From Candidatus Elulimicrobiales bacterium (GTDB taxonomy: Bacteria; Patescibacteriota; Minisyncoccia; Phycocordibacterales; UBA5272), in the NCBI GenBank assembly GCA_034927475.1, contig JAYFPW010000006.1, positions 9,197-73,196 on the forward strand: 64,000 nucleotides of DNA, given 5' to 3'. Below are positions 6,820 through 59,841 of this stretch, piece by piece; position 1 is the first letter of the stretch; each line of letters starts with the position of its first letter. The notes under the pieces are model-generated. The model was given only the letters and a program-made list of their open reading frames with translations, was not told the origin of the DNA and did not search any database. Made by a program: the position numbers and the translations under genes.

Positions 6820-6828
6820 TTTATTTAA

Positions 6829-29762: not shown

Positions 29763-30314
29763 TTATTTATTCTTTTTTATAAATCTTTTCTTAGCAATGT
29801 GTTTAGCTCTTTTATGAGAGATAACAAACTTTTCTGGATTTTCACACATATCCACAAAATCTTCGCTAACTTCTTTTAATCTAGATGAAGTCGATTTACC
29901 AAATGAAATCACTTCTACTTGGGTTGAGTTTTTTAAATATTCTACAAGAGGTTCAAAATCCCCATCACCTGTCGCAAGAATTATAGTATCCACTTTTGGT
30001 GCTAACCTGATAGCGTCGATAGCCAAACCGACATCCCAATCGCCTTTTTTATTTCCACCAAAAAAAACTTGTAAGTCTTTGATTTTTGTTTCTATTCCAA
30101 TTTTTGTTAAAGCTTCGAAAAAGTCTGTCTCGTCCCCTGCTTCTGTAGCAATCACATAAGCGATGGCTCGCACAAGATGTCTTCCAGCAAGCGCTTCTTC
30201 TAAAACGTTTTTGAAATTTACTTTTGCATTATATAAATTTTTTGCACTGTGATATAAGTTTTGAGTATCGATCAAAATCGCTACTCTTTGGTCTTTTTGT
30301 TTAATAATAGACAT
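29763..30314 (-). CDS. NYN/LabA-like (PIN-fold) domain protein
   Basis: Has the motifs VAILIDTQNLYHSAKNL and TIILATGDGDFEPLV typical of the LabA/NYN family. Confidence 0.75.
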   Translation of the reverse strand: MSIIKQKDQRVAILIDTQNLYHSAKNLYNAKVNFKNVLEEALAGRHLVRAIAYVIATEAGDETDFFEALTKIGIETKIKDLQVFFGGNKKGDWDVGLAIDAIRLAPKVDTIILATGDGDFEPLVEYLKNSTQVEVISFGKSTSSRLKEVSEDFVDMCENPEKFVISHKRAKHIAKKRFIKKNK

Positions 30315-30418
30315 ATATTTGTTGTTATTTATTTTAAATTATAAAAAATTAATTTGCACTTTTTAATATAAAAATTTACTTGTTTATTATAGCAAGATAA
30401 TAACCTTATAATTTAATT

Positions 30419-30449
30419 AAAAATCATCTTCGCTGAGAAGATGATTTTT
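30419..30449 (-). terminator. Rho-independent terminator after rpsO
   Basis: AAATCATCTTcgctgAGAAGATGATTT hairpin flanked by A/T runs. Confidence 0.6.
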
Positions 30450-30451
30450 AA

Positions 30452-30718
30452 TTATGCTCTGAGCCCTAATTTTTTAGTTACTTTTTTGTGAACTTCTGGT
30501 TGATTTTTTTCTAAATATTTTAAATGAGATCTTCTGTCTGCAACCAATTGAATTAAACCTCTTCTTGAACTGTTATCTTTTTTATGAGTTTTAAGATGAT
30601 TAGTTACTTCTTCAATTCGACGAGTCAAAATAGCGACTTGAGAGCCTGCAGAACCAGTATCTGTGTCATGCATCTGTACTTCCTTGATAGCATTTGCCTT
30701 TTTTCTTTTTGTAAGCAT
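30452..30718 (-). CDS. rpsO: 30S ribosomal protein S15
   Basis: 88 aa with HLKTHKKDNSSRRGLIQLVADRRSHLKYL, matching the S15 signature. Confidence 0.9.
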   Translation of the reverse strand: MLTKRKKANAIKEVQMHDTDTGSAGSQVAILTRRIEEVTNHLKTHKKDNSSRRGLIQLVADRRSHLKYLEKNQPEVHKKVTKKLGLRA

Positions 30719-30836
30719 ATTAGTATTAAAATTATCTTGACTTAAACAAGTTTGTATATCATATCATACTTTTCTAAAAAAAGCAAGTATAAGAAAAGTT
30801 TGAATATAAGTATTTTAACTGTGCTAAAATATAACC

Positions 30837-31874
30837 ATGTCGCACAATATCTCCATAAAAGAGCTTGAAAACCTAAAAGACAGCTTTCTAGAATATATAG
30901 AAATTGAAAGAGGTAGATCACTTTTAACTGTTAGAAATTATATTCACTATCTCGACAGGTTTATTAAATTCTTAAAAGATAATAAATTTTCGACCGTGGA
31001 TGATAGGGTTATGCGTGAGTATAGACTTTTCTTGAATCGCCTCCCCTCAAAAGGGAATTATAATTCAAAAAATAAACTTTCAGAAACTTTAGATAAAAAA
31101 ACTCAAAACTATCACTTGATAGCGCTCAGGGCTTTTTTGAAATATTGTCGCAGAAAAGAAGTAGAAGTCTATAATCCAGAAAAAATTGAATTAGCTAAAA
31201 CCTCTCAAAGAGAATTAGATTTAATCACTGAAAAAGATTTAGAAAATCTTTTAAATGCACCAGAAGAATTTTATGAAGCGAGAATTAAAGAATTAAATAA
31301 TTCAAAAAATAAAATTAAAGATTTAGAAGGGCAAAAAAAGAATCTTCTTTTAACTTCTCTGAGAGATAAAGCTATTTTAGAAACCTTTTTCTCTACCGGG
31401 CTTCGTGTTTCTGAACTTTGTTCTCTTGATAGAGATGAAGATTTGTCTCATGGAGAAATATCTATTCGCGGAAAAGGTGGAAAAGTCAGAGTCGTCTTTT
31501 TTTCGGATTTTGCTAGAAATGCTATCAGAGAATATTTAAAAGAAAGAGTTGATATCGACGACGCTATGTTTATAGATTTATCTTTTACCGCTAAAGGTAG
31601 AATTAAAGATGGAAAAGATTTAAGATTAACCACTAGAAGCGTAGAAAGAATTATAAAAAAATATGCAGAATTTGTTGGTATTTCTAAAAAATGTACCCCC
31701 CATGTTTTAAGACACTCTTTTGCTACCGATCTTTTAAAAAATGGAGCTGATATAAGGACGGTGCAAATGATGCTTGGCCACGCTTCTATCGCCACTACTC
31801 AGATTTATACAAATGTGACAAACAAATTCTTAAAAGACCAGTTTGCAAAGTATCATTCTAAAAAAAGAAGTTAA
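30837..31874 (+). CDS. xerC: Tyrosine site-specific recombinase XerC/XerD family
   Basis: C-terminal catalytic box HVLRHSFATDLLKNGADIRTVQMMLGHASIATTQIYTNV (R..HxxR..Y). It is 345 aa with an internal insertion. Confidence 0.85.
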   Translation: MSHNISIKELENLKDSFLEYIEIERGRSLLTVRNYIHYLDRFIKFLKDNKFSTVDDRVMREYRLFLNRLPSKGNYNSKNKLSETLDKKTQNYHLIALRAFLKYCRRKEVEVYNPEKIELAKTSQRELDLITEKDLENLLNAPEEFYEARIKELNNSKNKIKDLEGQKKNLLLTSLRDKAILETFFSTGLRVSELCSLDRDEDLSHGEISIRGKGGKVRVVFFSDFARNAIREYLKERVDIDDAMFIDLSFTAKGRIKDGKDLRLTTRSVERIIKKYAEFVGISKKCTPHVLRHSFATDLLKNGADIRTVQMMLGHASIATTQIYTNVTNKFLKDQFAKYHSKKRS

Positions 31875-31909
31875 TTTTCGTTTGAGATAGCTTATGTTAA
31901 AATAGTTTT

Positions 31910-32683
31910 ATGAAAATAATTACTTGGAATGTAAACGGGCTTCGCGCTATAGAAAGAAAAGGAGGATTAGATAATTTAGTAGAAAAATATTCTCCAGATA
32001 TCATCTGTTTGCAAGAAACTAAATCCCATATTGATCAATTAGAAGATAAAACAAAAGATAAACAGGGATATTATTCATTCTTTGAATCTGCAAATAATAG
32101 AAAAGGTTATTCTGGGGTGGCTATTTATACAAAAAAGCAGCCAATAAAAGTTTCTGGGACAATGGGTTATAAAGAGGAAGAATTTTTAGATAATGAAGGT
32201 AGAACTATCGTTGCTGAATACGAAGATTTTTATTTATTAAATGGATATTTTCCAAATGGAAATAAAAGTGAAGAACATTTTCAATATAAACTCGATTATT
32301 ATAAAAGATTTTTAAATTTAGCTAGAAAACTAGAAAAGAAAAAACCTGTGATTTTTTGTGGAGATGTAAATGCCACAGTCGCCGATATTGATCTTGCCCG
32401 TCCAAAAGAAAATGCAGGACAAGTTGGTTGTACTCCAGAAGAAAGAGAATTGCTTCAGGAATGGAGAAAATATTTTATTGATATTTGGAGAGAAGAAAAT
32501 CCAGAAAAGCAAGAATATACTTGGTGGGATATGAAAACTTTTGCCAGAGAGAGAAATGTCGGCTGGAGAATTGATTATTTTTTTATTTCTAAGTCTTTAA
32601 AAAGTAAAATCAAAAATGTAGAGATTTTAGGAGAAGTTTTTGGTTCAGATCATTGTCCAATAATTTTAGATATTAAGATTTAA
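31910..32683 (+). CDS. xthA: Exodeoxyribonuclease III (AP endonuclease)
   Basis: Has MKIITWNVNGLRA and a C-terminal SDHCPI; 257 aa. Confidence 0.9.
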   Translation: MKIITWNVNGLRAIERKGGLDNLVEKYSPDIICLQETKSHIDQLEDKTKDKQGYYSFFESANNRKGYSGVAIYTKKQPIKVSGTMGYKEEEFLDNEGRTIVAEYEDFYLLNGYFPNGNKSEEHFQYKLDYYKRFLNLARKLEKKKPVIFCGDVNATVADIDLARPKENAGQVGCTPEERELLQEWRKYFIDIWREENPEKQEYTWWDMKTFARERNVGWRIDYFFISKSLKSKIKNVEILGEVFGSDHCPIILDIKI

Positions 32684-32707
32684 AAATCTAGTACTGTTTA
32701 AATAAAA

Positions 32708-32745
32708 TAAAAAACACTTATAGAAAAGTGTTTTTTATTTTTTAT
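32708..32745. terminator. Bidirectional rho-independent terminator
   Basis: AAAACACTTatagaaAAGTGTTTT plus T-runs, between the convergent xthA and the 32760-34181 gene. Confidence 0.6.
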
Positions 32746-32759
32746 TAAAATTTATTTTA

Positions 32760-34181
32760 TTAGTTTACTAAGACAGAAGGAGAGGTGTTTGTTGATAAGA
32801 CCTCAAGAGGAAGAGATAGAGGAACTTCATAAAATACAATCTTACACCACCATGATGTTGTTGGGCATGTTACTGGAGGAGGAACATAAGAACTATCGCC
32901 ACCTCCACCCCCTCCACCATTCATCATAATAGTATCTGCTTCCAAAGCTTGGATTAAAGCATTAGCTTTCTTTATATTTAAGAATTTCTCTAAGTAATTA
33001 AGCATCTCGCAAGGCTTTCTAGGGTCGCTACAATCTCCAGGAACAGTTGGTAAAGGTTTTGGACAAACCTTAGTTTCTGGAACAATTGATCCATCAGGAC
33101 AGGGTTTATAACAAGTTGCAGTTGTAACAACCACAGTTCCGTCTGCACAAGTCTTAGTTGCTGGACAATTTTGAGTGGAAGGTATACTACTTCCATCAGG
33201 ACAAGTTTTAATTGTCGGAGTGGTTGGAACTGTTGGGGTTGTTGGACAATCTTCAGTAATTAAAACTCTACCTCCACTCGGACAAGATTTATATTGATCT
33301 GTAACTAAATTCCAAGAGCCTTTGTTTATGACATTTCTATTAGGGGTATAAGTTGTGTAAGATGGTCTAAATTTGAATTGGGCTACATATTGTCCAGGAT
33401 CTGCGTTTGTCGGTATAAATACAGAAGATGGAATTGCTTCACTACCATACACATAAGTTCTTGATAAAATAGGGCGCTGTCCAGTATTTACATCTATAAG
33501 AGTGGGGGTGTATGGTTCAGCATAGGCATAGCTACTAACATAAAGAGGAACATTAGCGGTATTTTTATCTACAAGGATAACGTCATGTGCTTCGCCAGAT
33601 GTATAAGTGCTACCTCCACTACCATATCGATCAGCGATATACCCAGTATATGAAAAAGTACCCTTTATATTACGCTGAGAATCTATATATACATCACTTA
33701 AGTTGGTAATTGTGAGGTCTACAATAGTATTTCCATAATTATCTCTCAGGTCTATACTACTAGCATTCCAGACGTTGAAGACCTGACGCCCCTCTAGGTA
33801 CACAGTATTTTTATTTGAGTCTAGATAAAAAACAGGAGCTTGAGAGAGTTGTTTAAGAGTTAAGAAAGAGCTTGTATCTGGTCTTCCTATTTCGAAGTTA
33901 TAATTGTACATATATAACGTTTGAGCATGGGTTGCTCCATTTGCACAACGTATATCTTGTTTAGGGTTTACATAGACATAAGGTGTGATAGTGTCTCCAG
34001 GTTTAAATTTCCCAAGACTACCACCAGTTAATCTATACTCTACAACGAGAGATGCATTTGAAGAGGATTGGGTAGGATCGGTAAAAGTTACACTAAATAC
34101 ATCTGCGCTTGCAATTTTTGCGGCGGAGAAGAATAAGATTGGAGTTAATATTGCAAAGATTATATTTTTATTAATTTTCAT
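32760..34181 (-). CDS. Secreted protein with Pro/Thr-rich linker and poly-Gly tract
   Basis: 473 aa with a signal peptide (IIFAILTPILFFSAAKIASA). The C-terminal region has repeated C-P-x-G-S/T motifs and a GGGGGGG run. Confidence 0.5.
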   Translation of the reverse strand: MKINKNIIFAILTPILFFSAAKIASADVFSVTFTDPTQSSSNASLVVEYRLTGGSLGKFKPGDTITPYVYVNPKQDIRCANGATHAQTLYMYNYNFEIGRPDTSSFLTLKQLSQAPVFYLDSNKNTVYLEGRQVFNVWNASSIDLRDNYGNTIVDLTITNLSDVYIDSQRNIKGTFSYTGYIADRYGSGGSTYTSGEAHDVILVDKNTANVPLYVSSYAYAEPYTPTLIDVNTGQRPILSRTYVYGSEAIPSSVFIPTNADPGQYVAQFKFRPSYTTYTPNRNVINKGSWNLVTDQYKSCPSGGRVLITEDCPTTPTVPTTPTIKTCPDGSSIPSTQNCPATKTCADGTVVVTTATCYKPCPDGSIVPETKVCPKPLPTVPGDCSDPRKPCEMLNYLEKFLNIKKANALIQALEADTIMMNGGGGGGGDSSYVPPPVTCPTTSWWCKIVFYEVPLSLPLEVLSTNTSPSVLVN

Positions 34182-34209
34182 ATTTTTGTTGTTAAATTTA
34201 TAATAAAGA

Positions 34210-35553
34210 TTATTTATCCTCGACCTTTTGTTTTTTAAGAAGTAGAATTCCGACAGCTATTAAAACTAGCACTAAAATTAATACCACTACATATATTGCG
34301 TTAGCATTTGCAAAAGAAAAGCTAGCTTTAGGAATATTTGCATTTATTTGTACATTTGTCACAGGATTGTTTAAATCAATCTTTGTGGTATCTAAGACAT
34401 TGCCATTATCATCTAATATACTTACTTCGGCTATAGCTCCGTCACAAGTTTTATCAATTGCCACCTTAATAAGATCTTCTCCTAAGATCTCAGGTGTGGC
34501 AACTTTTTTATTTACAGAACCACAAATATTTCCATTAGAATCTTTGATATCTATCTTAGTACGATATGTAGCATCGCTACCAGGAAGTCTTGAGAAGGAG
34601 AAGGTGTCAGCAGAAGCTGTCCAAAGAACTTTCACTTGTGCTTCATCTCCAGCTACATAATTAGTCTTATCCATTAAAACATTTTGAATAGTTGCTGATA
34701 CTCCAGAAATAACGTAGTGTAAAAATACTGAGTAAGAAACTTTTTCACCTTTACTATTAATTAAGAAAGTATCGATATCATACGCTTGTGGTGTAGTCTG
34801 AGTAGGGACTGGAAAAGTTATTGTCTGAGTACTCTTCCCTTTAATGGTAATAGGGTCTGGTAGAATTTCATTAGTCAAAATATCTCCCAACTGATCTCTT
34901 TTATGGGTAATAAGTTGTAATCTTAAATCATCTCCCTTCAAGGTATTATTTGTTATCTCACAAGAAGCAATTAATTTTTCTACTCCAGCTTTGATCGTCA
35001 CCCCTTCACCAAAGGCGTATGTAGTATTAGGATCATCACCCTCTACTTTCAAATAACACTTATCTACATCTAACCCAGAACTATTTTCAATGGTTATATA
35101 TTTTTCTGGAAAACTTGTAGGAGAAGTTGCTAAAAGTAGTCCATTTTGATTTTGAGCTACTATAAGCATTCTATAAACTCCATCAGAAATATAGTCCGGA
35201 ATTGTGTATTCCAGTGTTATTTCTTTTTGATCATTCTCTCCCAGAGTTATAGCCTTATTAACCAGGTATATATCAATAGGTTTATTATTGTATCTCCTTA
35301 TTAATTGAATACCGTATCGAATATTTGGTTGTATACCTTCTCTGTTAGTAAATACAAAAGATACAGAATAAGTCTTGTTGTTAATTTTTGTACTAGTAGC
35401 ATCGTAAATATTTACAGTTGCCAATTTGACTACTTCCATTTTCGTCTCTGGAACACTGGCTGTTGTTTGAGCAACTACTCTATAAGTATTTGCTACAGCA
35501 AAAAGTGCCAAAGCTAAGAAGGTTATAGAAAACAATTTTATAATTTTTTTCAT
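34210..35553 (-). CDS. Secreted protein with C-terminal transmembrane anchor
   Basis: 447 aa with a signal peptide (LFSITFLALALFAVANTYRVVAQ) and a C-terminal hydrophobic anchor (VVVLILVLVLIAVGILLLKKQK). It is co-directional and adjacent to 32760-34181. Confidence 0.5.
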   Translation of the reverse strand: MKKIIKLFSITFLALALFAVANTYRVVAQTTASVPETKMEVVKLATVNIYDATSTKINNKTYSVSFVFTNREGIQPNIRYGIQLIRRYNNKPIDIYLVNKAITLGENDQKEITLEYTIPDYISDGVYRMLIVAQNQNGLLLATSPTSFPEKYITIENSSGLDVDKCYLKVEGDDPNTTYAFGEGVTIKAGVEKLIASCEITNNTLKGDDLRLQLITHKRDQLGDILTNEILPDPITIKGKSTQTITFPVPTQTTPQAYDIDTFLINSKGEKVSYSVFLHYVISGVSATIQNVLMDKTNYVAGDEAQVKVLWTASADTFSFSRLPGSDATYRTKIDIKDSNGNICGSVNKKVATPEILGEDLIKVAIDKTCDGAIAEVSILDDNGNVLDTTKIDLNNPVTNVQINANIPKASFSFANANAIYVVVLILVLVLIAVGILLLKKQKVEDK

Positions 35554-35669
35554 AATTTAGTTAAAACTTAAAATATTAATAAATAAATAAATGCAAAACT
35601 TCTCATCTTATTTATAATAAAATTATAGCAAGTAATTCTTTAAATCTGACAAAAGTTATTCACATACAC

Positions 35670-35702
35670 AAAATCACACACAAATTTGTGTGTGATTTTT
35701 TA
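35670..35702. terminator. Perfect 28-bp palindrome hairpin with T-run
   Basis: AAATCACACACAAATTTGTGTGTGATTTTTT. Confidence 0.5.
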
Positions 35703-35725
35703 TTTATGAAATTTTAATTATTTAT

Positions 35726-35962
35726 TTACTCCAAAAAATTTTCTTCTCTAAGAGCGTTTTTCTTTTGCATTTTTAGGCTGGCTTTTTCTGCTCTTTTTAT
35801 CTGAGTTGCAGTTTTATTTGTCATATCTCTATTGTTTCTGGTCTGTATATCTATACTTGCCATTGTTGGGCTGGAAAAGAGCATTGTTGAAGCCAAAGTC
35901 ACTCCGGAAACTCCTAGAAGAACATCTTTTTGAAGCCTTTGCAGGCTATATCTTCTAGTCAT
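35726..35962 (-). CDS. Small hypothetical membrane protein
   Basis: 78-aa ORF with one hydrophobic segment. Weak support. Confidence 0.2.
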   Translation of the reverse strand: MTRRYSLQRLQKDVLLGVSGVTLASTMLFSSPTMASIDIQTRNNRDMTNKTATQIKRAEKASLKMQKKNALREENFLE

Positions 35963-36089
35963 ATTTATTATTTTGCTTTATTTTCAACAAAAAACTAAGT
36001 AATAAATTTGTATATAAATTTTTTTTTAATTCATATACATATTCATTGTAACAGACTTTTTAAAATTACAAAATTTTCTTAATTTTTTG

Positions 36090-37187
36090 TTAATTTAATG
36101 CTAATAAGCCAGGAAGTTTTCCGTCTTTTGCTAAATATTCGAGCATTGCGCCGCCAGCTGTAGAGATAAAGGTCTTGTTTTTTGAGACTATTTTAAGGTT
36201 CTTAACAAGAACTAAAGTATCCCCTCCTCCGATTAAAATGTTAACATTTTTATTTTTTAAAATCTTTAAAATAGCAATAGTTCCAGCATCAAACCCATCC
36301 TCGTATAAACCTAAAGGTCCATTTAATATGATATTTTTTGAGTTTTCCACTTCTTTTTTAAGAATAGCTAAAGTTGTTGGGCCAATATCTGCAATATAGT
36401 CTTTCTCTTTAAGTTTATCCACAGTTTCTACTTTTTTATTTTTTAAAATGACATCGATTGGAAGTAATAACTGCTTATTTTTAATAGAAGTTAGTAAAGT
36501 CTTTTTAATAACTGGAGAGATTTTAAAGTCTTTTTCTAAAAATGAAGAACCTGTTTCTAAATTTAAAACATCTTTTAAAATTTGATTTGCCATTCCTCCG
36601 CCAACAAAGACTTTTGCGTTTAAATCTAAAAACTTTGTTATTAAAGGTAATTTTGTAGAGATTTTTGCTCCAGAAAGAATGAGAAGCGTTTTATTTTTTT
36701 TATCTTTTGCTAATTTTAAACTCTTTTCAAGATTTTTAATTTCTATTTTTGACAAGTCTCCCAAGCTTACTTTTTTATTTTCTTTCTTAAATATTTCTGG
36801 AATGCCAACAATAGAAGCGTGTTCTCTATGCATAGTTGCAAAAGCGTCATTAATATATTCGTCCCCTAATGAAGCGAAATATTTAGCGGTCTCTTTAAAT
36901 TCTTTACTACTTTTTTTTAAAGTTTCTCCTTTCCAAAAACGAACATTATCTAAAATTTGAATATTTTCATTTTCTTTTTTATTTAATTTTTTACGTAGAT
37001 AATTTTCAACTGGCTTAAGAGAATCTTTTTTCTCCCCTTTTCCTAAATGGCTGAGAATAATGATTTTATTTTTCTCTGATAATTTTTTTATTTCTGGAAT
37101 AACAGCATCGATTCTTTCAGTGTCTCGAATGTTTCCATTTTTTTCTATTGGCACGTTTAAATCTAAACGTAAAATAATTTTTTTCAT
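36090..37187 (-). CDS. pgk: Phosphoglycerate kinase (short form)
   Basis: Has RLDLNVP, DAFATMHREHAS, and a C-terminal STAGGAMLEYLAKDGKLPGLLAL. Confidence 0.9.
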   Translation of the reverse strand: MKKIILRLDLNVPIEKNGNIRDTERIDAVIPEIKKLSEKNKIIILSHLGKGEKKDSLKPVENYLRKKLNKKENENIQILDNVRFWKGETLKKSSKEFKETAKYFASLGDEYINDAFATMHREHASIVGIPEIFKKENKKVSLGDLSKIEIKNLEKSLKLAKDKKNKTLLILSGAKISTKLPLITKFLDLNAKVFVGGGMANQILKDVLNLETGSSFLEKDFKISPVIKKTLLTSIKNKQLLLPIDVILKNKKVETVDKLKEKDYIADIGPTTLAILKKEVENSKNIILNGPLGLYEDGFDAGTIAILKILKNKNVNILIGGGDTLVLVKNLKIVSKNKTFISTAGGAMLEYLAKDGKLPGLLALN

Positions 37188-37218
37188 ATTTTTAAATTAA
37201 AAGATAATGTTGAAGAAT

Positions 37219-38223
37219 TTAAACTGTGGCTTCAACAAGTATTTTTGCTAAATCTTTTGCGGAAGAAGTTTCGTTGTTGATTAAAATTCCATCAACACTT
37301 CCTTCTTTTAAAATAGAATTAACATTGTTCAAATTAATTGGTCCACTGTATAAAATTCTGACTCTTTTAGCATTGTCTATACCAAAAAGGTTTGCTATAG
37401 CTCGTCTAATAGTGATAACTTTTTCCTGACAATCATCAACATAAACTCTGTCCATATTTAAAATCTTTTTACCAGTTTCGTAACAAATAAAAAGTTTATC
37501 AAAAAAATTATAATGAAGATTTTTCACCATTCTTTTTACGAAACTAGTGAGAAAAGTTAAATCGTCGTTATTGCTTTTAATAATTAAGACAGTTTCCATT
37601 TGATTTTGAAGAGATGTTTTTAATTTTTCCTCTAAAACTTGAAATTCTTTTTCTTTAGCTTTTAATAAAAGCTTTCTTTGTTCTTCACTTTCTTTTTCAG
37701 GATCGATTTTTTCTTCAACAACTTCTTCTTTTTTATTTTGTATATTTTTTTTACTAATACTATTTAGTCTTTGTAAAAAAACATTGTCGATTTCATTTTT
37801 CTTTTTAGATTTTTCTTTTGGTAATTCTTCTACTATTTCTGCGGGAACTTTATTTTCAAATTCGATATCGTTATTTAAAATTACAAATTTAGTACCAATA
37901 CTTTTTATTTGAGAAAAAGTCACACAGTTATTTTTATTGGTTTTATCTATTTCTTCAAAATTTTGTGCGCCAATAATTATTTTTTTTAGCTTTTCATTTT
38001 TCTTTTCTTTTACAAATTCTTGTAACGGATAAATAAAAGAAGAAGGAACAGATAAATAAAGATTCAAATCTCTTTTTTTAGGTTTCTTTTTTAATTCTAT
38101 GTCTTTTTTCCTAGCCAAGTCAGAATATTCTTTTGATAATTCTTTCAAAATGTTTTTTGCTTCTTTCAAATCAGAAACATAACCACGCCAATTTATAATA
38201 GTAATAGGAGTTTTTATTGCCAT
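37219..38223 (-). CDS. Triosephosphate isomerase-like protein, divergent, with ~80 aa charged insertion
   Basis: N-terminal ITIINWRGY is collinear with the GNWKMN motif, IIGAQN with the GAQN motif, and the C-terminal RVRILYSGPINLNNV...VDGILINNETSS with the IlYGGSV...DGaLVGGASL motif of TIM. It is immediately upstream of pgk. Confidence 0.5.
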   Translation of the reverse strand: MAIKTPITIINWRGYVSDLKEAKNILKELSKEYSDLARKKDIELKKKPKKRDLNLYLSVPSSFIYPLQEFVKEKKNEKLKKIIIGAQNFEEIDKTNKNNCVTFSQIKSIGTKFVILNNDIEFENKVPAEIVEELPKEKSKKKNEIDNVFLQRLNSISKKNIQNKKEEVVEEKIDPEKESEEQRKLLLKAKEKEFQVLEEKLKTSLQNQMETVLIIKSNNDDLTFLTSFVKRMVKNLHYNFFDKLFICYETGKKILNMDRVYVDDCQEKVITIRRAIANLFGIDNAKRVRILYSGPINLNNVNSILKEGSVDGILINNETSSAKDLAKILVEATV

Positions 38224-38321
38224 AAAGACATTTTAACATAAAAGATTTTTTAATTTTCTTTTTTTGACTTTGAAAACTTTTTTTGCTAAAATGTATCTAT
38301 TATTAAGTAAAGGTGTGAAGT

Positions 38322-39751: not shown

Positions 39752-40921
39752 ATGAAAGTAAAATTTGAAAATTTAGAAGATGGAGAAGTAAAAATGACTG
39801 TTTCTTTAGACAAAGAAGAGTTTGAAAAACATAGACAAGCTGGTTTTAAAAAGGTTCAGGAATTTATACAGATTGACGGTTTTAGAAAAGGTAATGTTCC
39901 AGAAAATGTCATTGTTGAAAAATATGGAGAAATGGTTATTTTGGAAGAAATGGCACATTTAGCCATTAACGACACTTTCTATTCTTCTATTATTAAAGAA
40001 AATGAAGATAAAAAGGATGATGAGAAAATTATCCCTCTTTCTGAGCCAAAGATTTCTATTACAAAAATTGGACAAGGGTCAGATCTCGAATATAACGCTG
40101 TTTTTTCAGTCCTTCCAAAAATAGATTTAGTAGATTATAAGAAAATAGCCAAAGAAGAGAATGAGAAGATAGAAAAAGAAGAGTTTGCTGAACTAAAAAA
40201 GAAAAACGACCAAGCTGTAAAAGAGGATATTTTAGAGGTTACCGAAGGGGAAGTTGTTGAAGTCCTTGAAAGTTTAAGAAAAACTAGATCTGGAGGAGGG
40301 CATGTTCATGAGGATGGGTCTGTACACTCTCATTCACACGAACATGTGGAAGAAGTTCCTCTAGAAGAAGGTGTAGAAAAGATAGAAAAAGAAGAACTTC
40401 CAGAATTAAACGATGAATTTGCACAAAGTTTTGGAGACCAATTTAAAACTTTAGATGAATTAAAGGCTAAGGTTAAAGAAAACTTAGTATTAGAAAAGAA
40501 ATCTAGACTACAAGAGAAAAAAAGAACCTCAATTTTAGAAAGATTGGTAACAGAAACCAAAACTGTATTACCAGAAGCTTTAATTGAAGACGAGTTAGAA
40601 AGAATGAAGTTACAAACTAAGGCTGATATTGAAAGATTTGGTAGTAAATGGGAAGAATATTTAACTCATTTAAAGAAAACCGAAGAAGATCTCAAGAGCG
40701 AATGGAGAGATATGGCTAGAAAAAGAGTAATGTCACAGCTTTTGATTAACGAAATAGCAAAAAAGGAGAAGGTGGAAGCCTCAAAAGAAGATATTGATGC
40801 CGAAGCTTTGAAAATTATGACTCAAATGCCAGAAGCAAATGAGAATAATGTGCGAGGATATGTACAGCAAATCCTGATTAACGAAAAAGTCATGAGAATG
40901 TTAGACGGAGAAGAAAAGTAA
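39752..40921 (+). CDS. tig: Trigger factor (ribosome-binding N-domain and C-domain; PPIase domain apparently replaced by His-rich segment)
   Basis: Signature GFRKGNVP in the N-domain. The middle segment is GGGHVHEDGSVHSHSHEHVEE rather than an FKBP fold. The C-terminal helical arm domain is present. Confidence 0.8.
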   Translation: MKVKFENLEDGEVKMTVSLDKEEFEKHRQAGFKKVQEFIQIDGFRKGNVPENVIVEKYGEMVILEEMAHLAINDTFYSSIIKENEDKKDDEKIIPLSEPKISITKIGQGSDLEYNAVFSVLPKIDLVDYKKIAKEENEKIEKEEFAELKKKNDQAVKEDILEVTEGEVVEVLESLRKTRSGGGHVHEDGSVHSHSHEHVEEVPLEEGVEKIEKEELPELNDEFAQSFGDQFKTLDELKAKVKENLVLEKKSRLQEKKRTSILERLVTETKTVLPEALIEDELERMKLQTKADIERFGSKWEEYLTHLKKTEEDLKSEWRDMARKRVMSQLLINEIAKKEKVEASKEDIDAEALKIMTQMPEANENNVRGYVQQILINEKVMRMLDGEEK

Positions 40922-40933
40922 GGTTATTTAAAA

Positions 40934-40968
40934 TAAAAGCCCTCATAAAAGTGAGGGTTTTTGTTTTT
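40934..40968 (+). terminator. Rho-independent terminator after tig
   Basis: AAAGCCCTCAtaaaaGTGAGGGTTTTTGTTTTT. Confidence 0.65.
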
Positions 40969-41039
40969 CTTCTATTTTTAGAACAGATGTTTTTTCTCCA
41001 CCAAGAGATTGTTTAGAACTTGTATCGAATTTAACTAAA

Positions 41040-41232
41040 ACAAAAAGACATTGCAAATATTTAAAAAGACAATATTTTTCTTAAAAATAAAAGACTTATT
41101 TTTTATAAAGGACATAAAAAGACAAAAATTTATAAAGGACATTTAAGAAAATTTACATAAAGGACAAGTTATCCACAGATATTTTCATAAAAGACATTGC
41201 ATTTAATTTAATGTCGTTTATAATATAAACAG
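41040..41232. repeat. Iteron-like array of AAAG(G)ACA(W) units with perfect DnaA box TTATCCACA (41169-41177); member of dispersed intergenic repeat family
   Basis: At least 8 copies of aaaggacat/aaaagacat within ~190 bp. It ends with ATGTCGTTTATAATATAA, which is shared with the copies at 59640, 62195, 48010 (inverted) and 49740. Confidence 0.55.
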
Positions 41233-41311
41233 GGTGAGCAGCTTAGGATAAAAGCGCAACCCGGCTTACGGGAATAATAAAAATAATATCCTATAAAGCT
41301 GGTTCTCACCA
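41232..41311 (+). other. Predicted stable ~80-nt stem-loop (possible small ncRNA; function unknown)
   Basis: GGTGAGCAGC-TTAGGATA-[...CCCGgcttaCGGG...]-TATCCTA-GCTGgttCTCACC are nested helices. It is flanked by AAACAG direct repeats. It does not match tRNA, tmRNA, SRP or RNase P signatures I can recognise. Confidence 0.3.
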
Positions 41312-41546
41312 AACAGTTCGTTACAAGCAACACAAGTTGCATAATAGCTAAAATAAACTAATAATAAATAATAGCACCCAACTTATATATTTTTGTTTGT
41401 CTTTTATAACTTTTAGACAAATAACTCAAAAGTATCTTAAATGTCTTTTATAAAAATAATAATCATCATAAAAGACATAAGCATTGAAAAATGCATCTCA
41501 AATACTAGAGGATGATACCTCACTAAAAACAATCAATATTATTCGT

Positions 41547-41589
41547 GTCCAGCGAATTAAATCCTTTCCAAAGATTTAGCTCGCTGGAC
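41547..41589. other. 43-bp near-perfect palindrome / hairpin
   Basis: GTCCAGCGAattAAATCcTTTccAAAGATTTagcTCGCTGGAC has a 9-bp outer stem and a palindromic inner stem. Confidence 0.4.
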
Positions 41590-41638
41590 ATGAGAAATAT
41601 CAAACTCTCCAATTATTCAGCGTCATGGTTGAGCCAAG

Positions 41639-41667
41639 CTCCCGGTTGAAATATGGGGAGTTTTTTA
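41639..41667 (+). terminator. Rho-independent terminator at end of the 0.96-kb noncoding region
   Basis: CTCCCggttgaaatatGGGGAG followed by TTTTTT. This implies a plus-strand transcript upstream with no ORF. Confidence 0.5.
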
Positions 41668-41884
41668 TTTGCAATTTTATATATAAAAATAACAATTATT
41701 TTAAATATTTTGTCAAGTTGTATTTTTTTCAAAAAAAGCTTTATACTATAAGGGTATTCTTGAAATTCGTTTTTTAAAATAAAAGCGAAAGAAAAGAATG
41801 TGCGCATATTAATAATATTTAAGATAATCCTAGGAAAATATCTTAAATTTAATTTTAAAAAACAAATTTAATTTAAATAAAAAT

Positions 41885-42157
41885 ATGAATAAAGTAGCAC
41901 TTGCAGAAGAGATCAATAAAATCTTAAATACTTCTAAAGCAGAATCAGAAAGAGTTGTTGAAGCTTTGTTTGATTCAATTGCTCACGCTCTTAAAAAAGG
42001 AGAAGAAGTATCAGTAGCAGGATTTGGAAAATTCTCTGTTAAACACAGAAAAGCTAGAGAAGCCAGAAATCCTAAGACTGGAGAAACTGTAAAAGTTCCA
42101 GCATCAAACGCTGTAAAGTTTTCAGTTGCTAAAGCTCTCAAAGAAGCTGTAAAGTAA
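41885..42157 (+). CDS. hup: DNA-binding protein HU
   Basis: 90 aa with GFGKFSVKHRKAREARNPKTGETVKVPA, the canonical HU arm. Confidence 0.9.
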   Translation: MNKVALAEEINKILNTSKAESERVVEALFDSIAHALKKGEEVSVAGFGKFSVKHRKAREARNPKTGETVKVPASNAVKFSVAKALKEAVK

Positions 42158-42219: not shown

Positions 42220-42804
42220 TTAGTTTTCCAAAAACATATTGTCTGGAAGGTGAGAAAGTTTAATTATATATCCCCTCCTTCTTTTTTCAGTTTTTGAAAT
42301 TTGAGCAGATGCATGTTTACTTGTTTTGTTTAAATAAGTTTCTGAGTAGATATGATCATAATAATCATCTCCAAGATAAGTTCCTAAATATGTAGGAATA
42401 TATTTGTCGATAATATCTTTTTCAACCTGTTCGAGCCATCTTATATTTGCTTCCTTCGTTGAACGTCTGTCATAAACAAACAGAGGAGAAGAAATACTGT
42501 TAACCCAAGAATATTTTAAAAATTCTGGATTATCGGTTACAAAGATAATCTTTTTAAACAACAAGGCTTTAAGAAGAAACTTTTTAAAAGATTTTCTCTC
42601 AGAGTCTTTAACAGACATATTTTTGCTTTTAAACGCCAGAAAGTAGTCGGAGTAAAATATTTTATACCCTTCGTCTTTCCACTCTTCAATCGAATTAATC
42701 ATTCGCTGAGACCTTGTCCCAACCAAGATTTTTGCTCTTAGTTTTAAGCTATATAAAATGTACAGCGTTAAAAGTAGCAATAAAATAAACACTAAAGTTC
42801 CCAT
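42220..42804 (-). CDS. Membrane-anchored hypothetical protein
   Basis: 194 aa with an N-terminal TM (LVFILLLLLTLYILYSL). No recognisable domain. Confidence 0.45.
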   Translation of the reverse strand: MGTLVFILLLLLTLYILYSLKLRAKILVGTRSQRMINSIEEWKDEGYKIFYSDYFLAFKSKNMSVKDSERKSFKKFLLKALLFKKIIFVTDNPEFLKYSWVNSISSPLFVYDRRSTKEANIRWLEQVEKDIIDKYIPTYLGTYLGDDYYDHIYSETYLNKTSKHASAQISKTEKRRRGYIIKLSHLPDNMFLEN

Positions 42805-49463: not shown

Positions 49464-49885
49464 ACTTTTTAAGTAAAATATTTAATTTAGAAATTAAAAA
49501 ATAATGTTTGTTTTTAGAATAAACAAAAACGTTTTACGTGAAAAATAAGAAAAACAAAAGAAAAAATAGTAGAACTATAGGAATTAATATTTTTGTTTCA
49601 CATGAAACAAAAAAGACATAAAATTGAGCAAAAAAGCCTTAAAAATAAAGACTTAAGGAATAAGCCTTATTTTAAGGACTTATTTGAAATAAACCTAGTG
49701 TCTTTTAGAAAATGTCTTTTAGAAAATGTCTCTTAAAAACATGTCGTTTATACACATTTGCACGGACTTTTCCACTATATTTTATAAAAGACAAGATTTT
49801 TTTCAAATGTCTTTTTGTTTAAAAAGTCTTTTATTATTCTTCAAATAACCTGAGAGAATATGCTAAGATTTTATATATAACAATT

Positions 49886-50967: not shown

Positions 50968-51017
50968 CATAGTTAAGAGTTTATTGCTATTTTTTTGATT
51001 TTTATTATAATTATTAT

Positions 51018-51300
51018 CTCTTTCCCAAATGATTACAGATTTTATTTTTTTAAAATCTGAGGAAAGTCGGAACACATACCTCTTCTTTGAAAGTTAAAAA
51101 GGTAGCGGGTAACGCCCGTCCATCGTGAGATGAGAGTTGCGAACAGTGACGAACCTATTTATTTAGGGTGAAACGGCTAAATACTTACCTGTGTGTAAGG
51201 TCGTGCTTTGATTTATTTCAAAGAGTGCCGCTAGAATTTTGAAGTAATTCAAAATCCAGATAAATAATCATATAAACAGAATTCCGCTTATGTGAAAGAG
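51018..51300 (+). ncRNA. rnpB: RNase P RNA (bacterial type, minimal ~283 nt)
   Basis: P1 CTCTTTC/GAAAGAG, P2 ATGATT/AATCAT, a P3 hairpin, and the conserved blocks GAGGAAAGTCGG, GGTAACGCCCG, AGGGTGAAACGG and ACAGAATTCCGCTTAT (P4 strands). It is followed by a terminator. Confidence 0.75.
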
Positions 51301-51305
51301 AATAT

Positions 51306-59790: not shown

Positions 59791-59841
59791 AGCCTTTTTA
59801 TTTGTAAATTTTATTTAACTTTTTAATTAAGAACAAAAATC

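What the first reader, a model, noticed from the sequence alone, without database searches (positions are those of the whole stretch)
40922..41884. 0.96-kb ORF-free region with iteron-like array, DnaA box, structured stem-loops and its own terminator
Between tig and hup there is no credible ORF, but the region holds:
- >=8 iteron-like AAAG(G)ACAW repeats;
- a perfect DnaA box;
- an ~80-nt nested stem-loop (41232-41311) flanked by AAACAG direct repeats;
- a 43-bp palindrome (41547-41589);
- a clean rho-independent terminator (41639-41667) on the plus strand.

The iterons + DnaA box + AT-rich tract resemble a replicon-origin-like module. The terminator implies a non-coding transcript of up to ~600 nt (candidate sRNA/6S/other). 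The bona fide RNase P RNA is elsewhere (51018-51300), so this is something else.
Basis: partly seen in the sequence, partly recalled or inferred. Interest (0 to 1): 0.55.

Follow-up and report, generated by a model that had tools for sequence, protein, structure and literature searches.

The report
Structured RNA gene, not an origin
The gap between the trigger-factor and HU genes of this tiny "candidate phyla radiation" bacterium holds a gene for a conserved, heavily folded RNA of about 435 nucleotides that matches no catalogued RNA family, together with its promoter and control sites; it is very unlikely to be a replication origin.

Summary
The origin reading does not hold; the non-coding-transcript reading does.

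**RNA gene.** Window 41232-41666 (+) is a ~435-nt RNA gene.
- It has a sigma-70-type promoter (TTGCAT-16-TATAAT) and an intrinsic terminator.
- It folds into eight helices.
- It is present in 14 Paceibacteria-type genomes (trigger factor 54-84% identical), always upstream of hup.
- In the two closest relatives the non-coding block is about as conserved as, or more than, the flanking protein.
- Covariation is strong in the 3' half: 96.9% of cells paired, 16 pairs with compensatory changes, 0/500 shuffles.
- Invariant G-U pairs and covariance-model scores put the RNA on the + strand.
- No Rfam family matches, in the window or in relatives.

**"Iterons" and DnaA box.** The repeat (TGTCBTTTAT) and the single DnaA box (AGTTATCCACA) are parts of a promoter module.
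- The box sits 55-56 nt before the RNA start in ten genomes.
- The module recurs before at least four other genes in the window, mostly surface or secreted proteins.
- dnaA lies 35 kb away, and the window has no DnaA-box cluster.

**Function is inferred only.** An invariant unpaired 16-mer is complementary to the 5' leaders, which carry terminator hairpins, of three of those genes. This suggests a trans-acting regulatory RNA.

The parts
40936..40962 (.). Terminator hairpin of tig, with T-runs on both sides (bidirectional). It is not part of the RNA gene and marks the left border of the control region.
   Evidence: Terminator scan. The sequence is not conserved in L001/L002, which carry a different hairpin there.
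40995..41008 (.). Conserved block TCTCCACCAAGAGA (a small hairpin) of unknown role, lying downstream of the minus-strand promoter-like site.
   Evidence: Invariant in the window, L001 and L002. Also present in L039 and L041.
41028..41056 (-). Divergent promoter-like site on the minus strand: TTGCAA (41056-41051), 17 nt, TAAATT (41033-41028). In relatives the orthologous site drives rsmE.
   Evidence: Read from the sequence. The same TTGCAA-17-TAAAGT/TAGAGT arrangement lies directly upstream of the rsmE start codon in L042 and L048. This stretch is the part of the element still found by nhmmer in L048/L049.
41043..41196 (+). Presumed binding sites of an unidentified DNA-binding regulator.
   Evidence: The copies next to the promoter are invariant in L001/L002. 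The motif variant changes with the genome: ATAAACGACA in L039, L044 and L047.
41167..41177 (+). AGTTATCCACA, a perfect DnaA box, ending 55 nt upstream of the RNA start.
   Evidence: The same 11-mer is found once upstream of the RNA in every related locus; its distance to the RNA start is 55-56 nt in ten genomes and 46 nt in L048/L049. It occupies the same position in the protein-gene modules.
41197..41224 (+). Promoter of the RNA: -35 TTGCAT (41197-41202), 16-nt spacer containing TGTCGTT, -10 TATAAT (41219-41224). Predicted start at 41231-41232.
   Evidence: Read from the sequence. TTTATAAT is invariant in relatives. The scanner missed it because the -35 matches only 3 of 6 positions. The sister modules score 10/12 as TTGTCT-16-TATAAT.
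41232..41666 (+). The RNA gene, ~435 nt from predicted start to terminator stem. The T-tract runs to 41670.
   Evidence: Fold z = -9.3. Homologues in 14 genomes. No Rfam match.
41233..41310 (+). Helix H1, a 78-nt 5' hairpin with the apical hairpin CCCGGCUUACGGG (41260-41272). AAGCUGG (41297-41303) can pair either with CAGCU (41240-41244) or with CCGGCU (41261-41266).
   Evidence: Both pairings pass the shuffle and slide controls: 93.9% and 98.5% of cells paired, against 16-45% when slid.
41327..41340 (+). Helix H2, GCAAC-ACAA-GUUGC.
   Evidence: The same position holds ACAAC/GUUGU in L004 and GCAAC/GUUGC with different loops in L003 and L038.
41373..41388 (+). Nearly invariant unpaired segment AGCACCCAACUUAUAU, the proposed base-pairing 'seed'.
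   Evidence: Invariant or nearly so in 11 sequences. Mean unpaired probability is 0.73, against 0.43 for the whole RNA. Three of its four best partners in the window are the module leaders at 59731, 48025 and 62236.
41395..41422 (+). Helix H3, with arms GUUUGUCU/AGACAAAU. The arms carry the DNA repeat motif in this genome.
   Evidence: Present in every genome in single-sequence folds. In L041/L042 the arms diverge from the motif (GCUUUAUCU/AGAUAAAGC, CUUCAUCU/AGAUGAAG) but stay complementary.
41440..41479 (+). Helix H4, with arms AAUGUCUUUUAU/AUAAAAGACAUA.
   Evidence: A compensatory U-A to A-U change in L003 and a 12-bp version in L004.
41481..41494 (+). Helix H5, GCAUU-GAAA-AAUGC. Variable, and absent in L041/L042.
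   Evidence: Different sequences form a hairpin at the same place (UUAACUU/AAGUUAA in L003, AUGCAU/AUGCAU in L004).
41495..41537 (+). Conserved segment AUCUCAAAUACUA, then helix H6 (GAGG-AUGAUA-CCUC, 41508-41521), then the A-rich linker ACUAAAAACAAUCAAU.
   Evidence: Nearly invariant. GGAUGAYACC occurs in the RNA of 11 of the 12 distinct genomes held at that point (L003 carries GGACGACACC instead), and 4 times in L047.
41542..41594 (+). The lower stem is invariant in sequence and includes an invariant G-U pair.
   Evidence: 98% of cells paired, 8-9 pairs with compensatory changes, and G-U at columns 6:57 in 14 of 14 sequences.
41602..41670 (+). Helix H8 and the terminator: outer stem AAACUCUCCAA/AUGGGGAGUUU enclosing two inner helices, followed by UUUUUUAUUU.
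   Evidence: The outer stem is 92-95% paired, with 4 covarying pairs. The T-run follows only on the + strand.
41710..41884 (+). hup's own promoter (TGTCAAGTTG element, TTGTAT-18-TATACT, -10 at 41742-41747) and a conserved ~130-nt 5' UTR (AAUGUGCGCAUAUUAAU 41797-41813, CCUAGG 41829-41834). This is a separate transcription unit, not part of the RNA.
   Evidence: Alignment of eight genomes, including three where an opposite-strand gene separates the RNA from hup.

Best explanation
The region holds three things: the control region, the promoter and the gene of a stand-alone structured non-coding RNA of about 435 nt (41232-41666, + strand). That RNA family is so far seen only in Paceibacteria-type Patescibacteria.

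**Shown**
- The RNA has a sigma-70-type promoter and an intrinsic terminator.
- It has eight helices, several of which covary.
- It keeps its position upstream of hup in 14 genomes.
- The 'iterons' (TGTCBTTTAT) and the DnaA box belong to a promoter module also found before other genes, mostly cell-surface or secreted proteins. In that module the repeats overlap the -35 and spacer and extend upstream, and the box sits about six helical turns before the start.

**Inferred**
- The repeats and the box bind regulators: an unknown factor, and DnaA or a protein with the same specificity. These would co-regulate the RNA and that gene set.
- The RNA acts in trans. My preferred mechanism, at roughly 30%, is base pairing. 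The invariant unpaired AGCACCCAACUUAUAU (41373-41388) would pair with the first ~17 nt of the leader transcripts of the module-driven genes. That stretch forms the 5' arm of a leader terminator hairpin, so pairing could alter termination or 5'-end stability.
For: **Conservation**
- The block 41000-41670 is about as conserved as, or more than, the flanking Tig protein (80-84% aa identity) in the two closest relatives. The tig terminator next to it is not conserved.
- nhmmer finds the whole element in more distant genomes, in changed gene contexts.
- Two covariance models score 101-148 bits in all 14 genomes. Three of these (L050-L052) were not used to build the models.

**Structure**
- 3' domain: 41 pairs, 96.9% of cells paired against 40-47% when slid, 16 pairs with changes on both sides, 0/500 shuffles.
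- H1 passes the same controls.
- H3-H6 recur in single-sequence folds with different sequences.
- Fold z = -9.3.

**Strand**
- Invariant G-U pairs.
- The reverse strand scores 31-48 bits against 101-136 for the + strand.
- The T-tract follows the stem only on +.

**One unit**
- One promoter and one terminator, and no conserved ORF.
- hup has its own conserved promoter. In L003, L041 and L042 it is separated from the RNA by an opposite-strand gene.

**Promoter module**
- TTGTCT-16-TATAAT with flanking repeats and the box at 48078-48023(-), 59675-59741, 61428-61515 and 62200-62268.
- The same module precedes giant-protein genes in L041 and L042.
- Box-to-start distance is 55-56 nt in ten genomes and 46 nt in L048/L049, one helical turn less.

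**Seed**
- In a scan of all 60-nt windows on both strands, the three leaders give -23.4 to -25.3 kcal/mol. The 1% tail is at -15.8.
- Other unpaired segments give nothing above background.
- Leader terminators are detected at 62283-62317 and 48008-47974.
Against: - No expression data: the transcript, its ends and its abundance are predicted only.
- The -35 hexamer is weak (3 of 6).
- The function is not established.
- At equilibrium the leader terminator hairpin survives in co-folds, and pairing adds only -4 to -5 kcal/mol.
- In most relatives no comparable leader target was among the best duplex partners within the 7-21 kb held. In L041/L042 the leader complementarity is interrupted: two short helices around a 3-nt internal loop.
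- The seed could instead be a relic of shared ancestry with the leaders, whose 5' ends resemble the RNA's own 5' end.
- One equally good duplex site (46666, +) lies antisense to a gene and is probably chance.
- H3 and H4 carry the DNA motif in both arms, so a DNA-level role as operators cannot be excluded for this genome.
- The family is narrow. The RNAs at the same position in L048/L049 do not match the models (2.7 and 6.9 bits).
Confidence: 0.78

Rival explanations
1. Replication origin or origin-like module: iterons plus a DnaA box plus AT-rich DNA recruit an initiator and unwind DNA here.
For: - Direct repeats, a perfect DnaA box and AT-rich DNA are present.
- The locus lies within ~3 kb of the cumulative GC-skew minimum and the gene-strand switch at ~38 kb.
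- A parS-like site at 49594-49609 suggests the window is origin-proximal.
- hup, next door, encodes a replication accessory protein.
Against: - There is only one box with <=1 mismatch, and no cluster.
- Box and repeats recur as a unit before at least four other genes in the window, and before unrelated genes in relatives, in register with -35/-10 hexamers.
- The repeat spacing is irregular (10-30 nt).
- nusA-tig, immediately to the left, have the strongest positive skew in the window, which places them to the right of the skew switch.
- dnaA/dnaN are 35 kb away. Their spacer (GC 0.18, four relaxed boxes in 73 bp) is a more conventional candidate.
- Most of the region is constrained as RNA secondary structure.
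- No similarity to plasmid or phage replicons, and no rep gene.
Confidence: 0.04
2. A protein-titrating (sponge or scaffold) RNA: repeated short hairpin motifs bind many copies of an RNA-binding protein, in the manner of CsrB/RsmZ, or the RNA mimics nucleic acid bound by a protein, in the manner of 6S RNA.
For: - In L044 and L047 the RNA grows to ~700-825 nt through repeated modules.
- These are 4-6 exact copies (about 7 with variants) of a hairpin loop UUGAGAUUACUCCU, and up to 4 copies of GGAUGAYACC followed by an A-rich tail.
- The modules occur only inside the RNA.
- The GGAUGA core resembles the CsrA-binding consensus (my recollection, not tested).
- The lower stem of H7 is invariant in sequence, as expected for a protein-binding duplex.
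- The gene always sits next to hup, and HU proteins bind structured RNAs (established knowledge).
Against: - The window's RNA has only one GGAUGAYACC and no clear UUGAGAUUACUCCU copy.
- No csrA or hfq gene was found in the window or in most loci, although only 7-64 kb per genome was searched.
- No Rfam match to CsrB, Rsm or 6S families.
- The 5' and 3' ends do not form the closing stem of a 6S-like rod.
Confidence: 0.2
3. A very divergent copy of a universal RNA (tmRNA, 6S RNA or SRP RNA) that current models miss.
For: - None of these three RNAs was found in the window.
- The size and strong promoter would suit tmRNA.
- A short frame ending in ..QVA-stop-stop at 41312-41347 looked like a tmRNA tag.
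Against: - No Rfam hit at E<=10 here or in relatives.
- ARAGORN finds no tmRNA.
- The 'tag' frame is not conserved: it has indels, an in-frame stop in L003, and the segment is the covarying hairpin H2.
- There is no tRNA-like end with CCA, no 5'-3' closing stem, and no SRP domain IV motif.
Confidence: 0.05
4. A long cis-acting leader or attenuator of hup: transcription starts at 41231 and the terminator at 41666 controls read-through into hup.
For: The RNA lies upstream of hup, in the same orientation, in all 14 genomes.
Against: - hup has its own conserved promoter and 5' UTR downstream of the terminator.
- In L003, L041 and L042 (and in L050-L052 by gene calls) an opposite-strand gene lies between the RNA and hup.
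- The terminator has a long stem and a 6-7-T run, and no alternative antiterminator pairing is conserved.
Confidence: 0.04
5. Protein-binding DNA only: the palindromes and repeats are operators, and the apparent RNA structure is a by-product.
For: The arms of H3 and H4 carry the same 10-mer as the upstream array, and the motif variant changes together in array and arms (ATAAACGACA genomes have TGTCGTTT/AAACGACA arms).
Against: - H1, H2, H5, H6, H7 and H8 do not contain the motif, yet they covary.
- The H3 arms leave the motif in L041/L042 but stay complementary.
- G-U pairs are tolerated on one strand only.
Confidence: 0.03

Closest known systems
Trans-acting base-pairing sRNAs that bind the extreme 5' end or leader of target mRNAs (e.g. 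FasX-ska in Streptococcus pyogenes, RoxS in Bacillus; from my knowledge)
   Same: A stand-alone gene with its own promoter and intrinsic terminator. An accessible, highly conserved single-stranded segment (with a C-rich core, CACCC) is complementary to the 5' ends of several mRNAs.
   Different: Two to four times longer, with eight helices. Targets and effect are untested. No sequence or Rfam relationship. Complementarity is weaker in some relatives.
RNA-controlled transcription attenuation (T-box leaders read by tRNA; antisense-RNA-driven attenuation in pT181/pIP501 plasmids; from my knowledge)
   Same: The proposed targets are leaders with a terminator hairpin right after the promoter (62283-62317, 48008-47974). 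The complementary segment covers the 5' arm of that hairpin.
   Different: No T-box or other known leader family is detected. At equilibrium the terminator is not displaced. The direction of any effect is unknown.
CsrB/RsmZ-type sponge RNAs
   Same: The number of short repeated hairpin modules varies between species (1 to ~7).
   Different: The repeats are different sequences. The window's copy has essentially one of them. No CsrA was found, and no Rfam match.
6S RNA
   Same: A conserved non-coding RNA of unknown partner, transcribed from a strong-looking promoter. Some hairpins contain promoter-like sequence.
   Different: No closing stem, no central bubble, twice the size, and no match to RF00013 or related models.
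DnaA-regulated promoters (dnaA, nrdAB in E. coli; sda and other DnaA-box genes in B. subtilis; from my knowledge)
   Same: A consensus DnaA box at a fixed, helically phased position upstream of promoters.
   Different: A single box combined with a second, unknown repeat. The downstream genes encode surface proteins and an RNA, not replication functions. Binding by DnaA is untested.
Iteron-type replication origins of plasmids and bacterial oriC
   Same: Direct repeats, a DnaA box and AT-rich DNA.
   Different: No rep gene, no box cluster and irregular spacing. The unit is dispersed over many promoters, and most of the region is an RNA gene.

Membership tests
Bacterial chromosomal origin (oriC) | Cluster of several DnaA boxes | tested here: not met
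   One box with <=1 mismatch in 963 nt. Four with <=2 mismatches, the same density as other intergenic DNA.
Bacterial chromosomal origin (oriC) | Adjacent to dnaA/dnaN, or located at the GC-skew switch | tested here: not met
   dnaA is at 5090-6436 and dnaN at 3631-4752. The cumulative skew minimum is at ~30-38 kb, with no inflection at 41 kb. A 64-kb window cannot place the origin precisely.
Bacterial chromosomal origin (oriC) | Unique locus in the chromosome | tested here: not met
   The same box-plus-repeat unit is found at 48.0, 59.7, 61.5 and 62.2 kb.
Bacterial chromosomal origin (oriC) | DNA unwinding and replication initiation at the site | not testable with these tools
   Needs marker-frequency analysis on a closed genome, or biochemistry.
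Iteron plasmid origin | Adjacent rep gene and regularly spaced ~17-22-bp iterons | tested here: not met
   No ORF in the region. The neighbours are tig, hup and clpP. Spacing is 10-30 nt. No plasmid or phage similarity.
Structured non-coding RNA gene (generic) | Conserved secondary structure supported by compensatory changes | tested here: met
   3' domain: 96.9% of cells paired, 16 of 41 pairs with changes on both sides, 0/500 shuffles, 40-47% paired when slid.
Structured non-coding RNA gene (generic) | Own promoter and terminator, and no conserved ORF | tested here: met
   TTGCAT-16-TATAAT, with the -10 invariant in relatives. Stem plus U-tract at the 3' end. ORFs <=64 aa are broken by indels.
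Structured non-coding RNA gene (generic) | Detected transcript | not testable with these tools
   No expression data are available.
Any Rfam 15 family | Covariance-model match | tested here: not met
   No family reaches its gathering score. At E<=10 the only hits in the region are far below gathering and look like chance, mostly terminator-like matches at the tig terminator. Relatives behave the same.
tmRNA | tRNA-like domain with CCA end and a conserved tag reading frame | tested here: not met
   ARAGORN is negative. The candidate frame is not conserved and forms a covarying hairpin.
6S RNA | Rod with a 5'-3' closing stem and a central bubble | tested here: not met
   The 5' end pairs locally in H1 and there is no long-range closing stem. 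No RF00013 hit.
Base-pairing regulatory sRNA | Conserved accessible seed complementary to mRNA targets | tested here: inconclusive
   The seed is invariant and unpaired. Three module leaders are among the four best partners in the window. Complementarity is weaker in other genomes, and no functional test was possible.
CsrB/Rsm-type sponge | Many GGA-containing hairpin loops and a CsrA partner | tested here: inconclusive
   One GGAUGA hairpin here and up to four in L047. No csrA was found in the limited DNA held.
DnaA-regulated promoter | DnaA box at a conserved position relative to the promoter | tested here: met
   AGTTATCCACA lies 55-56 nt before the RNA start in ten genomes and 46 nt in two. 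It is 41-45 nt before the -10 in the protein-gene modules.
DnaA-regulated promoter | DnaA binding and an effect on transcription | not testable with these tools
   Needs EMSA, ChIP or reporter assays.

The most novel reading that the evidence does not exclude
The RNA is the trans-acting arm of a previously undescribed regulon in Paceibacteria-type CPR bacteria.

- One promoter module would drive both the RNA and the genes for giant or surface proteins. The module consists of a DnaA box at about -60 plus TGTCBTTTAT repeats.
- The RNA would pair with the 5' leaders of those genes, which carry terminators, and so set read-through or stability.
- That would couple the state of the replication initiator to remodelling of the cell surface in these presumably host-attached, minimal-genome organisms.
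- The lineage-specific expansions of repeated hairpin modules would add a protein-titrating function.
Probability: 0.15. Interest if true: 0.8.

Novelty: new variant of a known kind. Interest (0 to 1): 0.6.

Why it matters
Patescibacteria/CPR bacteria have tiny genomes with little non-coding DNA, and almost nothing is known about their gene regulation or their RNAs beyond the universal ones.

- **A large investment in one RNA.** A nearly 1-kb ORF-free locus kept in 14 genomes is unusual for such genomes. Most of it is a covarying 380-830-nt RNA with no catalogued relatives, which marks it as important to these organisms.
- **First regulatory signals for the clade.** The same analysis exposes a recurrent promoter module: a DnaA box at a fixed upstream position, a 10-nt repeat, and leader terminators before surface and giant-protein genes. 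This may be among the first concrete regulatory signals proposed for this clade, since three literature searches found nothing comparable. It gives testable handles for finding the DNA-binding factor and the RNA's targets.
- **A caution for annotation.** 'Iterons plus a DnaA box' in an AT-rich gap is not enough to call an origin.

Tried and rejected
**tmRNA.** A tag-like frame (..QVA, stop, stop) at 41312-41347 looked promising.
- It is not conserved, L003 has an in-frame stop, and the segment is hairpin H2.
- ARAGORN is negative.

**SRP and 6S RNA.** No motifs and no Rfam hits.

**Small proteins.** ORFs of 31-64 aa are broken by indels in L001/L002. The AUG after AGAGG in H6 gives only a 4-codon frame.

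**Partner protein.** The small opposite-strand ORFs between the RNA and hup in relatives, and 42220-42804 here, are not demonstrably homologous (11-25% identity apart from the close relative L001).

**Mobile repeats.** GAGATTACTCC repeats in L044/L047 occur only inside the RNA, not elsewhere in the 21-kb loci.

**Metagenome pattern scan.** Of 31 hits, 29 were chance matches in GC-rich contigs. Only L023 and L038 were real.

**Distant homologues.** The RNAs at the same position and promoter in L048/L049 (Tig 44-46%) do not match either model. I do not count them as members.

**Other unpaired segments as seeds.** Nothing above background.

**Equilibrium antitermination.** Co-folding keeps the leader terminator intact, so the mechanism stays a hypothesis.

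**Other searches.**
- Plasmid and phage similarity: none.
- Literature searches for CPR non-coding RNAs or promoters: nothing relevant.
- csrA and hfq: none in the window.
Full report
**Setting**

The window is AT-rich (about 30% GC) and comes from a Patescibacteria/CPR bacterium. The closest trigger-factor homologues are from MAGs labelled Paceibacterota, Parcubacteria, Nomurabacteria or, in some records, Saccharibacteria.

The finding lies between tig (39752-40921, +) and hup (41885-42157, +). nusA, tpi and pgk lie upstream, and clpP and rny downstream. dnaA (5090-6436, -) and dnaN (3631-4752, -) are 35 kb away.

**Check of the observation**

All the listed features are in the sequence.
- No ORF longer than 64 aa overlaps 40922-41884.
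- AAARGACA occurs 10 times between 41043 and 41477. The window has 52 copies, against 12 expected.
- A perfect TTATCCACA sits at 41169-41177.
- The 5' stem-loop is 41233-41310 (-26 kcal/mol, z = -3.6).
- The palindrome is the core of a longer hairpin, 41542-41594.
- The region 41520-41675 folds with z = -7.3, and the whole 41231-41672 with z = -9.3.
- The flanking AAACAG repeats exist, but the upstream copy is not conserved.
- Rfam finds RNase P RNA at 51017-51305 and nothing in the finding, even at E<=10. The weak hits there are far below gathering and mostly terminator look-alikes at the tig terminator.

**Comparative evidence**

A genome scan with Tig gave five relatives. In the two closest, L001 and L002 (Tig 84% and 80% identical), the non-coding block 41000-41670 is about as conserved as, or more than, the protein. 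The tig terminator beside it has been replaced.

Further copies came from three sources.
- nhmmer found the complete element in L003 and L004, in a different gene context.
- A metagenome pattern scan added L023 and L038. The other 29 hits were chance matches.
- Contigs fetched through Tig homologues added L039, L041, L042, L044 and L047, then L050, L051 and L052.

That makes 14 distinct genomes, with Tig 54-84% identical. Two further Tig-bearing loci showed no copy, but each covered only part of the neighbourhood. L005 (61%) extends about 2 kb past tig. L046 (56%) has different synteny.

The conserved neighbourhood is rsmE(-) or tig, then the RNA(+), then sometimes a small opposite-strand membrane ORF, then hup, clpP and rny. 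The small ORFs are not demonstrably homologous to each other.

**The RNA**

The element has one promoter (TTGCAT-16-TATAAT, 41197-41224, with the -10 invariant) and one terminator (stem plus UUUUUUAUUU ending at 41670).

Between them lie eight helices:

| Helix | Coordinates |
|---|---|
| H1 | 41233-41310 |
| H2 | 41327-41340 |
| H3 | 41395-41422 |
| H4 | 41440-41479 |
| H5 | 41481-41494 |
| H6 | 41508-41521 |
| H7 | 41542-41594 |
| H8 | 41602-41663 |

For the 3' domain (H7 and H8):
- RNAalifold predicts 41 pairs, 17 with compensatory changes.
- On the MAFFT alignment, 95.7% of cells pair, against 37-49% when partners are slid, and no shuffle reaches the observed values.
- With 14 sequences the figures are 96.9%, 16 pairs and 0/500. 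That alignment is fitted to the model, which biases it towards pairing.

H1 has two mutually exclusive pairings for AAGCUGG. Both are supported by compensatory changes, so it may be bistable.

H3-H6 are poorly aligned by MAFFT. They recur in every single-sequence fold with different sequences.

Three lines of evidence fix the strand as +:
- invariant G-U pairs, for example columns 6:57 in 14 of 14 sequences;
- 101-136 bits for the + strand against 31-48 bits for the reverse strand;
- a T-run that follows the stem on the + strand only.

Two covariance models (3' and 5' domains) hit all 14 genomes at 101-148 bits. These include the three genomes not used for training.

The RNAs at the same position in L048 and L049 share the promoter and control region but do not match either model. 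I do not count them as members.

In L044 and L047 the RNA is ~700-825 nt, because short modules are repeated. These are the hairpin loop UUGAGAUUACUCCU and GGAUGAYACC plus an A-rich tail. They occur nowhere else in those loci.

**What the RNA is not**
- tmRNA: ARAGORN is negative, the tag-like frame is not conserved, and there is no tRNA-like end.
- 6S RNA: no closing stem or central bubble.
- SRP RNA or any other Rfam family.
- A hup leader: hup has its own conserved promoter and 5' UTR, and in several genomes is separated from the RNA by an opposite-strand gene.

**The 'iterons' and the DnaA box**

The 10-mer TGTCBTTTAT occurs 32 times in the window against 0.91 expected. Eight copies are here and 24 elsewhere.

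Elsewhere it forms a fixed module: [AG]TTATCCACA, N3, TTGTCCTTTAT, N6, TTGTCTTTTAT, N4, TGTCGTTTATAAT.
- The module lies at 48078-48023(-), 59675-59741(+) and 62200-62268(+). A version with a degenerate box lies at 61428-61515(+).
- The promoter scanner scores all four as TTGTCT-16-TATAAT, 10 of 12.
- The downstream genes encode a BNR/sortilin-repeat protein, two PG-binding-domain proteins and a signal-peptide ORF.
- The same module precedes genes for 1541- and 1628-aa proteins in L042 and L041.

Upstream of the RNA, the box AGTTATCCACA is present in every genome. It ends 55-56 nt before the start in ten genomes and 46 nt before it in L048/L049, one helical turn less.

The far-upstream part of the array overlaps a divergent minus-strand promoter (TTGCAA-17-TAAATT, 41056-41028). 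In relatives the orthologous site drives rsmE.

The repeats and the box are therefore promoter-associated control sites of a dispersed gene set, not origin-specific elements. Which proteins bind them is unknown. DnaA is the obvious candidate for the box.

**Origin question**
- The window has no cluster of DnaA boxes.
- The best conventional candidate is the dnaA-dnaN spacer (4753-5089, GC 0.18), with four relaxed boxes at 5015-5087.
- The cumulative GC-skew minimum is at ~30-38 kb and coincides with the switch from minus- to plus-strand genes. nusA-tig, just left of the finding, have the strongest positive skew. There is no inflection at 41 kb.
- A near-consensus parS at 49594-49609 suggests the window is origin-proximal.
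- A 64-kb window cannot locate the origin, but nothing singles out this locus.
- Plasmid and phage collections hold nothing similar.

**How it may work (inference)**

The best-conserved unpaired stretch is AGCACCCAACUUAUAU (41373-41388). Its unpaired probability is 0.73, against 0.43 for the RNA as a whole.

I scanned every 60-nt window of both strands for duplex formation with it.
- Apart from its own antisense, the best sites were 46666(+), 59731(+), 48025(-) and 62236(+).
- The last three are the 5' leaders of module-driven genes, at -23.4 to -25.3 kcal/mol. The 1% tail is -15.8.
- Other unpaired segments gave nothing comparable.

The leaders begin (A)UAUAAGUAAGGGUGCUUAGAGC. They form a hairpin followed by a U-tract, which the scanner calls a terminator at 62283-62317 and 48008-47974. 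The seed is complementary to the 5' arm of that hairpin and to the 8 nt before it.

This suggests that the RNA alters termination or 5'-end stability of those leaders. The caveats are substantial.
- At equilibrium the terminator is retained, and the gain is only -4 to -5 kcal/mol.
- In L041/L042 the leader complementarity is interrupted: two short helices around a 3-nt internal loop. It is not among the top duplex sites.
- The leaders resemble the RNA's own 5' end, so shared ancestry could explain part of the match.

An alternative or additional role as a protein-binding RNA is suggested by three observations: the repeated modules in L044/L047, the sequence-invariant lower stem of H7, and the constant linkage to hup.

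I put the gene-level conclusion at about 0.9, the promoter-module reading of the repeats and box at about 0.8, and the base-pairing mechanism at about 0.3.

**Novelty**

No Rfam 15 family matches, and three literature searches found no description of CPR non-coding RNAs or promoter motifs of this kind. I rate it a new family within a known kind: a stand-alone structured regulatory RNA. An unusual conserved promoter and leader architecture is attached to it.

Noticed in passing
window 48078-47974 (-), 59675-59800 (+), 61428-61520 (+), 62200-62317 (+): Recurrent promoter module: DnaA box, three TGTCBTTTAT repeats and TATAAT, followed by a leader starting AUAUAAGUAAGGGUGCU that forms a hairpin plus U-tract. 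It precedes genes for a BNR/sortilin-repeat protein, two PG-binding-domain proteins and a secreted ORF. The same module precedes giant-protein genes in L041 (488-400, -) and L042 (3050-2960, -).
   Followed up: partly
window 4753-5089: The dnaA-dnaN spacer has GC 0.18 and four relaxed DnaA boxes on one strand at 5015-5087. It is a more conventional oriC candidate than the finding. The 774-nt region upstream of dnaA (6437-7210, GC 0.20) has no box with <=1 mismatch.
   Followed up: partly
window 49594-49609 (also 49530, 50678, 52648): TGTTTCACATGAAACA, one mismatch from the parS consensus, plus weaker copies (4 found against 0.37 expected). This suggests the window is origin-proximal.
   Followed up: no
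window ~30000-38300: The cumulative GC-skew minimum and the switch from minus-strand to plus-strand genes lie here, neither at dnaA nor at the finding. A XerC/D-like integrase gene is at 30837-31874.
   Followed up: no
window 41710-41884: hup has a conserved promoter (TGTCAAGTTG element, TTGTAT-18-TATACT) and a conserved ~130-nt 5' UTR with the palindromes AUGUGCGCAUAU and CCUAGG, kept across eight genomes. It may be an HU autoregulatory leader.
   Followed up: partly
window 52943-52994 (-): Three copies of the TGTCBTTTAT repeat lie inside the coding sequence of the CCA-adding enzyme gene (52520-54022), on the antisense strand. This may be an internal antisense promoter.
   Followed up: no
window 39752-40921: The trigger factor has N- and C-terminal domains but no detectable FKBP-type PPIase domain. 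A His-rich stretch (..HVHEDGSVHSHSHEHV..) sits in its place.
   Followed up: no
window 51017-51305: The RNase P RNA is short (289 nt against a 367-position model) and only just passes the Rfam threshold (102.3 bits against 100).
   Followed up: no
L044 2486-1785 (-), L047 13329-14154 (+): In these two genomes the RNA is ~700-825 nt because of internal tandem-like modules: the UUGAGAUUACUCCU hairpin loops (4-6 exact GAGAUUACUCC cores, about 7 counting variants) and GGAUGACACC plus an A-rich tail (up to 4 copies).
   Followed up: partly
L048 12652-12950, L049 12623-12880: The same control region (repeats, one or two DnaA boxes, TTGCA-type -35) drives a shorter ~260-300-nt structured RNA starting GGGUAG. 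It does not match the covariance models. It is either a very distant homologue or a replacement.
   Followed up: partly
L049 1744-1995: An hfq gene whose product is 84% identical to E. coli Hfq sits on a Patescibacteria-like contig. This could be recent transfer or a chimeric assembly.
   Followed up: no
window 40995-41056 (-): In this genome the rsmE-type divergent promoter faces tig instead of rsmE. It would produce a short minus-strand transcript through the conserved block TCTCCACCAAGAGA to the bidirectional tig terminator. This might be a second small RNA.
   Followed up: no
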